Below are positions 45,528-50,959 of a stretch of 64,000 nucleotides of DNA, piece by piece. Source of the DNA: the human T2T-CHM13v2.0 reference genome, Homo sapiens. The stretch lies in assembly GCF_009914755.1 (NCBI RefSeq), contig NC_060925.1, one strand, 5' to 3'. Position 1 is the stretch's first letter, and every line of letters begins with the position of its first letter. The notes under the pieces were generated by a model. It was not told the origin of the DNA and made no database searches. It was given only the letters and a program-made list of their open reading frames with translations. Made by a program: the position numbers and the translations under genes.

Positions 45528-45536
45528 ATATGTGAA

Positions 45537-45970
45537 TTTCATGCGCGTCCGTGTGAAGAGACCACCAAACAGGCTTTGTGTGAGCAACATGGCTGTTTAT
45601 TTCACCTGGGTGCAGGCGGGCTGAGTCCAAAAAGAGAGTCAGTGAAGGGAGATAAGGGTGGGGCTGTTTTATAGGATTTGGGTAGGTAAAGGAAAATTAC
45701 AGTCAAAGGGGGTTGTTCTCTGGTGGGCAGGGGCGGGGGTCACAAGGTGCTCAGTGGGGGAGCTTCTGAGCCAGGAGAAGGAGATTCACAGGGTTAATCA
45801 CGCAGTTAAGGTGGGGCAGGAACAAATCACAATGGTGGAATGTCATCAGTTAAGGCGGGGCAGGGCCTTTTCACTTCTTTTGTGATTCTTCAGTTACTTC
45901 AGGCCATCTGGGCGTATACGTGCAAGTCACAGGGGATGCGATGGCTTGTCTTGGGCTCAGAGGCCTGACA
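45537..45970 (-). promoter_or_regulatory. HERV-H 3' LTR (434 bp) with LTR7Y-like central U3
   Basis: TGTCAGGCCTCTGAGCCC...GCGCATGAAA; polyA signal AATAAA at 45596-45601; U3 has CATTCCACCATTGTGATTTGTTCCTGCCCCACC. Confidence 0.93.
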
Positions 45971-48900
45971 TTCCTGCCTTCTTATATTTATAAGAAGAAT
46001 AAAACAAAATAGTGTTGAAGTGTTGGGGTGGCGAAAATTTTTGGGGGGTGGTATGGAGAGAGAATGGGCGATGTTTCTCAGGGCTGCTTCAAGCGGGATT
46101 AGGGGCGGCGTGGGAACCTAGAGTGGGAGAGATTAAGCTGAAGGGAGGTCTTGTGGTAAGGGGTGATATTGTGGGGATGTTAGAAGAAACATTTGTCGTA
46201 TAGAATGATTGGCGATGGCCTGGATAAGGTTTTGGATGAATTGAGAAACTAAATGGAATAACAGAAGGAGAAAAATAGGTATAAAAGGTCTAAGAATTGG
46301 GACGACTCAGGATATCTGATTAGAGAGTGCCTAAAGAGATTCAGCATAGTCCTGCCAGCAAAGATTATTTATTTACTTCAAGAGTTAAGAGTGGCAGTCT
46401 GGGGATAGCATCAGGAGATATCAGCTGTGACGGCTTGGAAACACAGTGTAAACCGGCAGTGTAAACAAGAGCAGGGCATGTATGAGTAGTTGAGAACGGT
46501 GAATAGGAGAGTATGACTAGATAGAAGATAGTAGGGATGACAAGTTTTTTGGGGCACAGTCTAAGTTGGTCTGGTGTCTGGAATGAGACTGGGGCCTAAT
46601 AAAAAGGAGCAACTATACAGGAGCTTAAATGGGCTGTACCCTGTAGCATTCCGAGGACAGGCCTGAATTCTGAGAAGGGAAAGTGGTAAAAGTATTGTCT
46701 AGTCCTTTTTAAGTTGGTAGCTGAGCTTGGTGAGGTGTGTTTTTAAAAGACCTTTAGTCCGTTCTACTTTTCTTGAAGATGGAGGACCGTAAGGGATATA
46801 AAGGTTTCACTGAATACTAAGAGCCTGAAAAACTGCTTGGCTGATTTGACTAATAAAGGCTCGTCTGTTATCAGACTGTATTGAGGTGGGAAGGCTAAAC
46901 TGAGGAATTATGTCTGACAGAAGGGAAGAAATGACTGCAGTGGCCTTCTCGGACCCTGTAGGAAAGGCCTCTACCCATCCAGTGAAAGTATCTACCTAGA
47001 CTAAGAGGTATTTTAGTTATCTGACTCAGGGCATATTGAGTAAAGCTAATCTGCCAGTCCAGGGTGGGGGCAAATCCTCGAGCTTGATGTGTAGGGAAGG
47101 GAGGGGGCCTGAAGAATCCCTGAGGAGTAGTAGAATAGCAGATGGAACACTGAGAAGTTATTTCCTTGAGGATAGATTTCCACGATGGAAAGGAAATGAG
47201 AGGTTCTAAGAGGCGGGCTAGTGGCTTGTACTATAGTATAACCTGCCTTTGCTGGTGAGTGGCGATTAGGCCTGGTGGAACCGCCAGCAATAAATCAAGC
47301 GTGATCAGGGTGAGGAACAGGAAAGAAGGAAATTTGGGGAAATGGGGTGAATGTCAGGTGGATCAGAGAGATACAGTCATGGGGGTCAGGTGTGGTATCA
47401 GGAATAATGTGGGAGGCCAGATTGAAGTCTGGGCCAGGAACAACGGTAATTGTGGGAGACTCAACAAAGAGTGAGTACAGCTGAAGGAGCCAGGGAGCAG
47501 AAAGTATATGTGTCAGGTGTGAGGAAGAAAATAGATTTTGGAAGTTATGAGAACTGTAGAGAGTGAGTTGAGCATAGTTTGTGATTTTGAGGGCCTCTAA
47601 AAGTATTAAAGCAGCGGCAGCCGCTGCACGCAGACATGAGGGCTAGGCTAAAACAGTAAGGTCAAGTTGTTTGGACAGAAAGGCTACAGGGTGCGGTCCC
47701 GGCTCTTGTGTAAGAATTCTGACCGCCCTAACCATGCCTAGGAAGGAAAGGAGCTGTTGTTTTGTAGAAGGTGCTGGGGTTTGAGAGATCAGTCAGACAC
47801 GATTGGCAGGGAGAGCACGTGTGTTTTTATGAGAATTATGCCGAGATAGGTAACAGATGAGGAAGAAATTTGGGCTTGATTGAAGTAATGGGGGCTGTCT
47901 GTGAAGCTTTGCGGCAGTATAGCCTAGGTAATTTGCTGAGCTTGATGGGTGTCAGGGTCAGTCCAAGTGAAAGCAAAGAGAGGCTGGGATGAAGGGTGCA
48001 AAGGGATAGTAAAGAAAGCATGTTTGAGATCTAGAACAGAATAATGGGTTGTAGAGGCAGGTATTGAGGATAGGAGAGTATATGGGTTTGGCACCACGGG
48101 GTGGATAGGCAAAACAATTTGGTTGATAAGGCGCAGATCCTGAACTAACTTGTAAGGCTTGTCTGGTTTTAGGACAGGTAAAATGGGGGAATTGTAAGGA
48201 GAGTTTATAGGCTTTAAAAGGCCATGCTGTAGCAGGCAAGCGATAACAGGCTTTAATCTTTTTAAAGCGTGCTGCGGGATGGGATATTGGCGTTGAGTGG
48301 GCTAAGGGTGATTAGGTTTTAATGAGATGGTAAGGGGTGCATGATCGGTCACCAAGGAGGGAGTAGAGGTATCTTATACTTGTGGGTTAAGGGATACAAG
48401 AGGAGGAGTCAGTCAGAGAGCCCTGGGCCAGAGTTCCCGGGGCTCTGGGAGTGGCTGCCAGGTGAGTTGAACAGTCCGATTTTCAGTGGGGTCCCACATA
48501 GATGGGACGCGGCTTAGGAGGAATCCTGGGCTGCGGGCATTCCTTGGCCCAGTGGCCAGATTTCTGGCACTTGTAGCAAGCTCCTGTGGGAGGAGGTTCT
48601 GGAGGAACGCCTGGCCGCTGCGGTTCAGGCGTTTGGAAGTTCTTGTGTGCTGGAGATGTGGCTGGGGTTTGTCTCACAGTGGAGGCAAGGAATTGCAACA
48701 TTTTCTATTATTGTACACCTTGAAGATGGGTTAATTAAGTCCTGTTGTGGGGTTTGAGGGCCAGATTCTAATTTTTGGAGTTTTATTTAATGTCGGGAGC
48801 AGATTGGGTAATAAAATGTATATTGAGAATAAGACGGCCTTTTGACCTTTTAGGGTCCAGGGCTGTAAAGTGTCTCAGGGTTGCTGCCAAACGAGCCATG

Positions 48901-49687
48901 AACTGGGCTAGGTTTTTATATTTGATGAAAAAGAGCCTAAACGCTATCTGATTTGGGATAAAGAAAAAGGAGCATTAACCTTGACTATGCCTTTAGCTCT
49001 AGCCACCTTTTTAAGAGTAAATTGCTGGGCAGGTGGGGGAGGGCTAGTCACGGAACGAAACTGTAAGCCGGAGCAGGTGTGAGGAGGGGAGGTGATAAAA
49101 AGATTATAGGGTGGAGGAGCGGAGGCTGAGGAAGAATTGGGACCTAGCTCGGCCTGGAGAGGAGCAGCCTGGGGAGGAAGGGACAGGTCAGATAGGTCTG
49201 TAGAAAAGGGAGATTAGAAAGACTCAGCGATGCTTGGGGTTGGTACTGAGGAGACAGGTGGGAGGGAAAGAAGGAAGGTTTGGGACAAGTTGCACTGGGC
49301 ACAGAGACTAGGAAGGGACTGATGTGTAAAAGAATGCCTGGACATCAGGCACCTCAGACCGTTTGCCTATTTTATGACAAGAATTATTTAGATTTTGCAG
49401 GATGGAAAAATTCAAAGTGCCATTTTCTGGCTATTTGGAACTACTGTCAAGTTTGTATTGGGGTCAAGTGGCATTGCAGAAAAAAATAAGGCATTTAGGT
49501 TTTAGGTCAGGTGTGAGTTGAAGAGGTTTTAAGTTTTTGAGAACAGAGGCCAAGGGAGTAGAAGGAGGAATGGAGGGTGGAATGTTGCCCATAGTGAAGG
49601 AAGCAAGCCTAGAGAAAAGAGAGAGTAGAGAAATGGAGGGAAGGGGTTTGGGGGTTCTTACCTTCCAGAAAAGTGGGAAAAGGGGTT

Positions 49688-49857
49688 GGGGCGCAGAGAT
49701 AAGAGGTCGGGGCGTGGAAATAAGGGATTGGGGCGCAGAGATATAAGAGGTTGGGGCACAGAAATAAGGGATTAGGGCACAGAGATAAGAGGTTGGGGCG
49801 TGGAAATAAGGGATTGGGGCACAGAGATAAGAGGTTGGGGCATGGAAATAAGGGATT
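49688..49857. repeat. G-rich 42-bp tandem repeat x4 in the HERV-H leader
   Basis: GGGGC(G/A)CAGAGATAAGAGGTTGGGGCGTGGAAATAAGGGATT units. Confidence 0.93.
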
Positions 49858-50305
49858 GGGGGTTCTTGCTCCATAGAAAAGCAGGACTTGCCACTAAGGG
49901 TGAAGGAGAAGGGGTTGAGGGATACTTGCCCCTCTCCCAGAAAAGCAGAGAAGGGGTAGAGACAAGGAGAGAAGGGGTTGAGGTACTTGCCCCTTTCCCG
50001 GAAAAGCGGGACTTGCCGCTAAGGGTGAAGGACCAAGACAGGCTTCCCTGAGTGGTCTGACACCCTTGAAACGTGGGTGTATAATCAGAGAGGCGTCCCT
50101 GCAATGATTAAACACCAAGGGAAGGCTGCCTTCCCAGTCCGTGACCGGCACCAGAGTTTTGAGTCCACGGATAAAACGTGTCTCCTTTGTCTCTCCCAGA
50201 AAATGAAAGGAATTGAAATTAAGAGAAGGGAGAGATTGAAGAGTGGAAAGGAGAAAGTGGTTGAGGGACAATGAGAAAGGTTGGAGAAGAGAGTAAGAAG
50301 AGGCC

Positions 50306-50314
50306 GCTTACCTG
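50306..50314 (-). promoter_or_regulatory. HERV-H major splice donor CAG|GTAAGC
   Basis: Minus strand TTAAATCAG|GTAAGCGG, about 145 nt downstream of the 5' LTR, the usual position of the HERV-H donor. Confidence 0.8.
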
Positions 50315-50437
50315 ATTTAAAATTGGTGAGATGTTCCTTGGGCTGATCGGTCTGAGGACCTGAGGTCATAGGTGGATCTTTCTCATGGAGCAAAGAACAG
50401 GAGGACAGGGGACTGATCTCCCAAGGGAGGTCCCCCG

Positions 50438-50455
50438 ATCCGAGTCACAGCACCA
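50438..50455 (-). promoter_or_regulatory. Primer binding site, tRNA-His
   Basis: TGGTGCTGTGACTCGGAT, one C>T from the His PBS TGGTGCCGTGACTCGGAT. Confidence 0.95.
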
Positions 50456-50457
50456 AA

Positions 50458-50909
50458 TTTCATGCGCGTCCGTGTGAAGAGACACCAAACAGGCTTTGTG
50501 TGAGCAACATGGCTGTTTATTTCACCTGGGTGCAGGCAGGCTGAGTCCAAAAAGAGAGTCAGCGAAGGGAGATAAGGATGGGGCTGTTTTATAGGATTTG
50601 GGTAGGTAAAGGAAAATTACAGTCAAAGGGGGTTTGTTCTCTGGCGGGCAGGAGTGGGGGTCGCAAGGTGCTCAGTGAGGGTGGTTTTTGAGCCAGGATG
50701 AGCCAGGAAAAGGACTTTCACAAGGTAATGTCATCACTTAAGGCAAGGACCAGCCATTTACACTTCTTTTGTGTTGGAATGTCATCAGTTAAGGTGGGGC
50801 AGGGCATATTCACTTCTTTTGTGATTCTTCAGTTACTTCAGGCCATCTGGGCATATACGTGCAAGTCACAGGGGATGCGATGGCTTGTCTTGGGCTCAGA
50901 GGCCTGACA
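50458..50909 (-). promoter_or_regulatory. HERV-H 5' LTR (452 bp), canonical LTR7/LTR7up-like promoter
   Basis: Two ACAAAAGA SOX-type motifs (plus-strand TCTTTTGT at about 50765 and 50815), TATAAAA at 50587-50593, adjacent PBS. Confidence 0.93.
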
Positions 50910-50959
50910 GTGAAGATACGACCTCCAAGATGTTATCAGAGAGACTCTGACCCACAATC

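What the first reader, a model, noticed from the sequence alone, without database searches (positions are those of the whole stretch)
45713..50810. One HERV-H provirus with two different U3 cores: LTR7-type 5' LTR and LTR7Y-type 3' LTR
Seen: both LTRs lie inside one GTGAA TSD. Outside a central block they differ at only about 5 positions in about 275 bp, and both carry CCCAAGACAAGCC near the U3 start, where I recall CCCAAGC(C/T)AAGCC in the consensus. The central blocks (3' LTR 45713-45870, 5' LTR 50633-50810) are structurally different. The 5' LTR reads CAACACAAAAGAAGTGTAAATGGCTGGTCCTTGCC...CCTGGCTCATCCTGGCTCAAAAA (two ACAAAAGA motifs in the LTR). The 3' LTR reads CACCATTGTGATTTGTTCCTGCCCCACC...GATTAACCCTGTGAATCTCC...GGCTCAGAAGCTCCC (one ACAAAAGA). 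Established: LTRs are identical at integration, and LTR7up and LTR7Y U3 modules are tied to different embryonic stages (primed pluripotent versus cleavage/morula/naive). Inference: a tract of about 160-180 bp was replaced by ectopic gene conversion from another HERV-H subfamily, or by recombination between copackaged genomes, swapping the regulatory module of one LTR. One element may therefore hold two stage-specific promoters/enhancers.
Basis: partly seen in the sequence, partly recalled or inferred. Interest (0 to 1): 0.82.

Follow-up and report, generated by a model that had tools for sequence, protein, structure and literature searches.

The report
HERV-H provirus with mismatched LTR cores
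One human endogenous retrovirus copy carries two different regulatory cores in its two end repeats, most likely because a short stretch of its downstream repeat was overwritten from a related copy after insertion; the process is known and this is a clean example of it.

Summary
A minus-strand HERV-H provirus (window 45537-50909) lies between identical GTGAA duplications. Its LTRs differ at 5 of 277 flank columns but at 55 of 177 central columns. The 5' LTR is LTR7up1 throughout. It has the second AAAAGAAG copy that Carter et al. 2022 tie to SOX2/3-dependent activity.

The 3' LTR is a mosaic. Its central 157-258 bp is LTR7u2-type: 53 of 54 diagnostic columns, 97-99% identical to 39 other scored loci. 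The sequence downstream of that tract keeps 7up states. Both LTRs share a near-private base: the exact 21-mer occurs 3 times in the genome, and 2 of those are here. The internal region groups with 7up proviruses.

Best reading: ectopic gene conversion of the 3' LTR after integration. The donor and the date could not be determined.

"LTR7Y" fits only the older naming, because the 7y/7b block-3 insertion is absent. Recombination between copackaged genomes would not make the two LTRs differ. The stage contrast is weaker than proposed, since 7u2 is reported as epiblast-restricted.

The split 7up1/7u2 call for this locus is already in Carter's supplementary table, though I found no discussion of it. 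LTR gene conversion is documented. This is a new member of a known kind, of modest interest.

The parts
45532..45536 (.). Target-site duplication GTGAA, 3' side of the provirus
   Evidence: Read directly. It is identical to 50910-50914.
45537..45970 (-). 3' LTR, 434 bp: a mosaic of a shared left part, a 7u2-type central tract and a 7up-type right part
   Evidence: Alignment and diagnostic columns. The hg38 annotation calls it LTR7u2.
45713..45869 (-). Minimal converted tract (157 bp), 7u2-type block 2b and neighbouring U3. The outer limits allowed by informative sites are 45691-45948.
   Evidence: 53 of 54 diagnostic block columns carry the 7u2-core state. The tract is 97-99% identical to 39 other scored loci. 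It groups with 29 7u2-core LTRs with SH-aLRT 100. It carries 2 private substitutions.
45971..50457 (-). Internal HERV-H region, about 4.49 kb. A purine-rich tract abuts the 3' LTR at 45971-45983. An 18-nt primer-binding site lies at 50438-50455, two bases after the 5' LTR.
   Evidence: sequence; the last 1200 nt is 90.5-96.3% identical to 7up-LTR proviruses and 87.7-94.1% to 7u2-LTR proviruses; the tree places it with 13 7up rows. Reading the primer-binding site as tRNA-His type is recalled, not tested.
50458..50909 (-). 5' LTR, 452 bp, LTR7up1 throughout
   Evidence: 56 of 56 diagnostic columns carry the 7up-core state. It is listed as 7up1 in Carter Supplementary files 1, 5 and 6. The core tree gives SH-aLRT 100 with 29 7up-core LTRs.
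50633..50808 (-). 7up-type central block of the 5' LTR, the counterpart of the converted tract. It holds the second AAAAGAAG copy at 50763-50770.
   Evidence: The 8-bp motif and its role are taken from Carter et al. 2022 passages.
50910..50914 (.). Target-site duplication GTGAA, 5' side of the provirus
   Evidence: Read directly.

Best explanation
An LTR7up1-type HERV-H provirus integrated here with two identical LTRs. Later a central U3 tract of its 3' LTR was overwritten by non-allelic (ectopic) gene conversion from an LTR7u2-type LTR elsewhere in the genome. The tract is at least 157 bp and at most about 258 bp.

The 5' LTR keeps the 7up1 module, including the duplicated block 2b with the 8-bp AAAAGAAG SOX2/3 motif. 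The 3' LTR now carries the 7u2 form of block 2b inside 7up1 flanks.

Shown: the mosaic structure, the sister flanks, the 7up affinity of the internal region, and the abundance of possible 7u2 donors. Inferred: the mechanism, its direction, and any regulatory consequence.
For: - **Intact duplication and sister flanks.** GTGAA is present on both sides. The flanks differ at 5 of 277 columns and the block at 55 of 177.
- **Shared derived variants on both sides of the tract.** Both LTRs have A at position 22, seen in 0 of 58 sampled LTRs; the exact 21-mer occurs 3 times genome-wide, 2 of them here. Both also have A at position 325 (6 of 58) and T at position 361 (7 of 58).
- **Diagnostic columns.** I compared 29 7up-core and 29 7u2-core genomic LTRs. 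The 3' LTR has the 7u2 state at 53 of 54 block columns, but the 7up state at 2 of 2 right-flank columns, where 29 of 29 7u2-core copies differ. It also has T at position 335 (24 of 29 7up copies, 6 of 29 7u2 copies).
- **Core tree.** The 5' LTR groups with the 7up-core copies and the 3' LTR with the 7u2-core copies, each with SH-aLRT 100.
- **Right-flank tree.** The two LTRs are each other's nearest rows and lie on the 7up side of a 98/96 split.
- **Internal region.** The last 1200 nt falls in a clade of 13 7up-LTR proviruses and 0 7u2 rows, support 82/93. The first 1200 nt is 91.5-92.1% identical to three of the four 7up proviruses aligned at full length (the fourth 85.5%) and at most 87.6% to 7u2 ones.
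- **Donors are plentiful.** 39 other scored loci match the tract at 97-99%.
- **Independent assembly.** hg38 gives the same split call.
- **Known process.** Ectopic conversion among human LTRs is documented (Trombetta et al. 2016, abstract read).
Against: - **Weak flank test.** The AU test on the 176-column right flank does not reject placing the 3' LTR with the 7u2 copies (p 0.425). Only 2-3 sites decide it.
- **The junction is not unique.** A 7u2-core provirus at C1:65.52 Mb has both 7up-like right-flank states in both of its LTRs, and two more 7u2-core LTRs have one of them.
- **No left-flank information.** No diagnostic site exists in positions 1-101, so the left breakpoint is only bracketed by the shared A at position 22.
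- **Modest support for the internal clade.** It is not starred (82/93). The AU rejection of "7u2 rows plus this provirus" (p 0.0005) is confounded because the 7u2 rows are not one clade in the free tree.
- **No donor identified.** The tract's two private substitutions were found in none of 39 other scored matches.
- **No ape or pangenome sequence was available**, so neither the ancestral state nor the date is observed.
Confidence: 0.8

Rival explanations
1. The direction is reversed. The provirus originally had 7u2-core LTRs of a variant lineage with 7up-like downstream states, and the 5' LTR core was converted to 7up1 type.
For: Such 7u2-core LTRs with 7up-like states at positions 300 and 307 exist: both LTRs of the provirus at C1:65.52 Mb. 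The AU test does not reject the 3' LTR right flank grouping with 7u2 copies (p 0.425).
Against: The internal sequence at both ends is closer to 7up proviruses. T at position 335 is the 7up-majority state. The C1:65.52 Mb copies lack the three shared variants of this provirus.
Confidence: 0.07
2. The LTRs already differed at integration, through recombination between copackaged 7up1 and 7u2 genomes or an intermolecular plus-strand transfer during reverse transcription.
For: Carter et al. 2022 invoke template switching between copackaged genomes for the subfamily mosaics (passage read).
Against: In the standard model both U3 copies are made from one minus-strand template, so recombinant genomes still give identical LTRs (established knowledge). 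An intermolecular plus-strand transfer would exchange a whole LTR, not an internal patch with shared near-private variants on both sides.
Confidence: 0.04
3. It is a chimeric element made by crossover between two proviruses, or an assembly chimera.
For: HERV-H elements are known substrates of ectopic recombination (search listing only).
Against: The duplications match. The 3' LTR returns to 7up states downstream of the tract. Both flanks share near-private variants. hg38 and T2T-CHM13 agree on the split.
Confidence: 0.02

Closest known systems
Ectopic (non-allelic) gene conversion among human LTRs (Trombetta et al. 2016, Sci Rep; abstract read)
   Same: A short patch in one LTR is derived from a paralogous LTR elsewhere, leaving a patchwork.
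   Different: That study used Y-chromosome LTRs and polymorphism data. Here the patch swaps a subfamily-defining regulatory block in an autosomal HERV-H provirus, and the donor is not identified.
Mosaic block evolution of LTR7 subfamilies (Carter et al. 2022, eLife; section 9 and passages read)
   Same: The block exchanged here includes block 2b, the block whose two forms (the 7up/u1 duplication and the b/c/u2/y form) distinguish subfamilies in that paper.
   Different: The paper describes exchange between lineages that then amplified, ascribed to template switching. Here a single integrated copy changed one LTR only, and no progeny were detected.
Intra-element LTR homogenisation by gene conversion (Kijima and Innan 2010, cited in Thomas et al. 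2018; passage read)
   Same: DNA-level conversion acting on proviral LTRs.
   Different: That process makes the two LTRs of a provirus more alike. Here conversion from an outside donor made them less alike.

Membership tests
HERV-H provirus | Two LTR7-family LTRs in the same orientation, bounded by a short identical target-site duplication | tested here: met
   LTRs at 45537-45970 and 50458-50909. GTGAA on both sides.
HERV-H provirus | Internal region homologous to other HERV-H internal regions | tested here: met
   1200-nt ends of the internal region align at 82-96% to the DNA next to other LTR7 copies.
HERV-H provirus | Primer-binding site of tRNA-His type | not tested
   An 18-nt site lies two bases after the 5' LTR. 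Its tRNA match is recalled only.
LTR7up1 (Carter 2022) | Block 2b as a duplicate of 2a, with the 8-bp AAAAGAAG insertion | tested here: met
   In the 5' LTR AAAAGAAG occurs at positions 90 and 140. The 3' LTR has only the first copy, so it does not meet this feature.
LTR7up1 (Carter 2022) | Subfamily states along the whole LTR | tested here: met
   The 5' LTR has the 7up-core state at 56 of 56 diagnostic columns and is published as 7up1. The 29 comparison copies were chosen by core similarity, so 7up1 and 7up2 were separated only by eye against Supplementary file 7.
LTR7u2 (Carter 2022) | Block 2b of the b/c/u2/y form, without the 7y/7b block-3 insertion | tested here: met
   The 3' LTR has the 7u2 state at 53 of 54 block columns. 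Comparison by eye with Supplementary file 7 agrees. It is published as LTR7u2.
LTR7u2 (Carter 2022) | 7u2 states downstream of the block | tested here: not met
   0 of 2 fixed right-flank columns carry the 7u2 state, so the 3' LTR is a mosaic and not a plain member.
LTR7Y (Carter 2022 sense) | Block-3 insertion shared with 7b, and absence of the GGCCCTGCCCC segment | tested here: not met
   By eye against Supplementary file 7, the 3' LTR lacks the insertion and has the segment. No alignment to the consensus was run.
Ectopic gene conversion tract | A discrete divergent patch between near-identical flanks that share derived variants | tested here: met
   55 of 177 versus 5 of 277 differing columns. 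Shared A at position 22, plus A at 325 and T at 361.
Ectopic gene conversion tract | An identified donor paralogue | tested here: inconclusive
   39 other scored loci match equally well, at 97-99%. None carries the tract's 2 private substitutions.
Ectopic gene conversion tract | The unconverted ancestral state seen in an ortholog or another haplotype | not testable with these tools
   No ape or pangenome sequence is held.

The most novel reading that the evidence does not exclude
Conversion of a 3' LTR at the DNA level may be a route to new LTR7 subfamilies. Progeny U3 is copied from the parent's 3' LTR, so a provirus driven by an intact 7up1 5' LTR but ending in a 7u2-core U3 would give offspring with a mosaic U3 in both LTRs. 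This locus would be a preserved intermediate of that route. It would offer an alternative to template switching for some of the block exchanges described by Carter et al.
Probability: 0.12. Interest if true: 0.55.

Novelty: new member of a known kind. Interest (0 to 1): 0.3.

Why it matters
The locus is a natural experiment. Two LTRs share flanks and chromosomal context but differ in the block that Carter et al. showed is needed for 7up promoter activity in pluripotent cells. Comparing their chromatin state or reporter output would isolate that block's effect.

It also shows that LTR-LTR divergence dating and subfamily calls based on one LTR can mislead for individual HERV-H proviruses. It does not change what is known about mechanism.

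Tried and rejected
- **Genome-wide census of heterotypic proviruses.** This was not possible. Pattern search counts 549 7up-type block sites but lists only 100, and DNA searches score only 40 matches. Of those 8, 7 have a 7up-type partner and 1 has none in range. Adding the pairs visible gives 20 homotypic proviruses against this one. The sample is biased and small.
- **Donor search**. No locus stands out.
- **AU tests**. The quick-search tests were uninformative because the constrained trees scored higher than the free tree. The careful right-flank test does not reject the rival placement. The internal-region test is confounded.
- **Literature.** Searches found no paper that discusses a 7up1/7u2 heterotypic provirus. 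I read only passages of the 2025 Mobile DNA review, of Thomas 2018 and of Gemmell 2016.
- **Independent point mutation** is rejected as the cause of the block. It includes two multi-base indels and matches another subfamily at 53 of 54 columns.
Full report
**What is there**

The window holds a minus-strand HERV-H provirus of 5373 bp, at 45537-50909. Its 3' LTR is 45537-45970 (434 bp) and its 5' LTR is 50458-50909 (452 bp). GTGAA flanks it on both sides, at 45532-45536 and 50910-50914.

A pairwise alignment, counted, gives 5 differing columns out of 277 outside a central block. Inside the block 55 of 177 columns differ, including an 8-nt and an 11-nt indel (Fisher p 7e-20). ACAAAAGA occurs twice in the 5' LTR and once in the 3' LTR.

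**Which subfamilies**

The window is T2T-CHM13 chr1:231.6 Mb. I matched it to the hg38 tables of Carter et al. 2022 (eLife, PMC8912925) using three things: the element's size, its distance of 111.5 kb from a neighbouring 7up1 provirus, and the private start of its LTR.

- Supplementary files 1, 5 and 6 list chr1:232229629-232234999 (minus strand) as 7up1, on the basis of its 5' LTR.
- Supplementary file 2 lists the same element twice. One row is an LTR7up1 "one LTR plus internal" entry (232230061-232234998). The other is an LTR7u2 entry of the same kind (232229628-232234547). In other words the 3' LTR was re-masked as LTR7u2.

The mismatch therefore exists in print as a table artefact. In the passages and sections I read I found no discussion of it.

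I also compared both LTRs by eye with the published consensus alignment, Supplementary file 7.

- The 5' LTR follows 7up1 throughout.
- The 3' LTR follows 7u2 from just after position 101 to about position 258 of that LTR. It then follows 7up1 where the two consensuses differ.
- The 3' LTR is not 7y in that paper's sense. It has a segment that the 7y consensus lacks, and it lacks the block-3 insertion that 7y shares with 7b.
- The paper states that 53% of old LTR7Y annotations became 7u2.

**Test against genomic copies**

I searched the assembly with each core. In each search 40 matches were scored, out of 2175 and 1448 candidates, and the 39 non-self matches were 97-99% identical. From these I took 29 LTRs with the 7u2-type core and 29 with the 7up-type core.

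- **Diagnostic columns.** Fifty-six alignment columns separate the two groups at 80% or more in each. The 5' LTR has the 7up state at 56 of 56. The 3' LTR has the 7u2 state at 53 of 54 block columns and a private base at the other one. At the 2 right-flank columns it has the 7up state, where 29 of 29 7u2-core copies differ.
- **Further right-flank sites.** Both LTRs have T at position 335, which is seen in 24 of 29 7up copies and 6 of 29 7u2 copies.
- **Shared variants.** Both LTRs share A at position 22 (0 of 58 others), A at 325 (6 of 58) and T at 361 (7 of 58). The exact 21-mer around position 22 occurs three times in the assembly. Two are these LTRs, and the third is a single LTR of another chr1 provirus.
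- **Left flank.** Positions 1-101 hold no site that separates the groups.

The tract is therefore at least 157 bp (45713-45869). The informative sites allow at most about 258 bp (45691-45948).

**Trees**

- **Core tree.** The 5' LTR falls with the 7up group and the 3' LTR with the 7u2 group, each with SH-aLRT 100.
- **Right-flank tree.** In the careful search the groups split at 98/96. Both LTRs lie on the 7up side and are each other's nearest rows.
- **Limits.** The AU test does not reject placing the 3' LTR with the 7u2 copies (p 0.425). The flank evidence rests on a few sites plus the shared variants. The quick-search AU tests were uninformative.

**Which LTR changed**

The internal sequence decides this better than the LTR flanks do.

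- The last 1200 nt before the 3' LTR is 90.5-96.3% identical to 17 proviruses with 7up LTRs. It is 87.7-94.1% identical to 12 proviruses with 7u2 LTRs.
- In a tree that segment falls in a clade of 13 7up rows and no 7u2 row, with support 82/93, which is not starred.
- The first 1200 nt is 91.5-92.1% identical to three of the four 7up proviruses aligned at full length (the fourth is 85.5%). It is at most 87.6% identical to 7u2 ones.

The element is thus a 7up1 provirus whose 3' LTR was the acceptor.

One caution applies. A junction search found a 7u2-core provirus at C1:65.52 Mb whose two LTRs have the same junction states. Two more 7u2-core LTRs have one of the two states. These copies lack the three shared variants of this provirus, but they keep the reverse direction possible.

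**Mechanism**

Both U3 copies of a new provirus derive from a single template during reverse transcription. Recombination between copackaged genomes therefore does not predict different LTRs (established knowledge). An internal patch is present, both of its flanks remain sisters, and the duplication is intact. That pattern is what ectopic gene conversion produces. Trombetta et al. 2016 report conversion as common among human LTRs (abstract).

The donor cannot be named. The best matches differ from the tract only at its two private substitutions, and none of the 39 other scored matches carries either one. Two private changes in 157 bp suggest the event is old. With so few events I attach no date.

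**Function**

Carter et al. show that the 8-bp AAAAGAAG motif in block 2b is needed for 7up1 promoter activity in iPSC. The 5' LTR has it and the 3' LTR lost it.

Their Supplementary file 1 scores the insertion as a whole, not each LTR:

| Call in Supplementary file 1 | Value |
|---|---|
| RNA | 0 |
| Top-septile GRO-seq | 0 |
| SOX2 | 0 |
| NANOG | 1 |
| KLF4 | 1 |
| FOXA1 | 1 |
| KAP1 | 1 |
| ZNF534 | 1 |
| H3K4me3 | 1 |
| H3K9me3 | 1 |
| H3K27ac | 1 |

The hub's annotation places two RefSeq enhancer features over the 5' LTR and none over the 3' LTR. 7u2 is reported as epiblast-restricted and 7up as epiblast plus ESC. The two modules therefore overlap in stage rather than contrast sharply. 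Any separate activity of the 3' LTR is inference.

**How unusual it is**

- After re-masking with the finer library, Carter's counts of "full" elements fall from 964 to 735, and "truncated" elements rise from 362 to 802. This fits many proviruses receiving two different LTR names. Most of these may involve near-identical subfamilies; that is my inference.
- I cross-checked by eye all 86 one-LTR 7up1 rows against all 55 one-LTR and 62 two-LTR 7u2 rows. Ten pairs overlap. Only two of them have a whole LTR of each kind at the two ends: this locus and hg38 chr14:50893163-50896881.
- In my own biased sample, the 20 proviruses I could pair were homotypic. Twenty more could not be checked.

**Verdict**

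The feature is real and well delimited. It is best explained by a known process acting on a known family. It is useful as a natural control for block 2b and as a caution for LTR-based dating.

Noticed in passing
window 50808 (5' LTR position 102): The hg38 copy of this 5' LTR printed in Carter Supplementary file 6 reads A where T2T-CHM13 reads T. This is the first site that separates the 7up and 7u2 cores. It may be a plain SNP or a one-site exchange with the 3' LTR.
   Followed up: no
hg38 chr14:50893163-50896881 (Carter Supplementary file 2; not in the window): A second provirus is listed with a whole LTR7up1 at the 5' end and a whole LTR7u2 at the 3' end (offsets 450 and 490 bp). It may be another case of the same kind.
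   Followed up: no
L035 (C9:111847184) and L053 (C5:18545712): These are 3' LTRs with 7up-type cores whose adjoining 1.2 kb of internal sequence groups with 7u2-LTR proviruses in the tree. The partner LTR of L053 is 7up type. They may be further chimeric proviruses.
   Followed up: partly
G000 C1:231504159-231509539, 111 kb upstream of the provirus (outside the window): A neighbouring full-length 7up1 provirus on the plus strand. Carter Supplementary file 1 scores it as transcribed and SOX2-bound in H1, unlike the provirus studied here.
   Followed up: partly
window 49680-49871: About nine tandem copies of a 21-bp unit lie inside the 5' part of the internal region.
   Followed up: no
L061 (C1:65520300-65526600): A 4.4-kb provirus whose two 7u2-core LTRs both carry 7up-like states just downstream of the core. 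It is either an early-branching 7u2 lineage or a transposed mosaic.
   Followed up: partly
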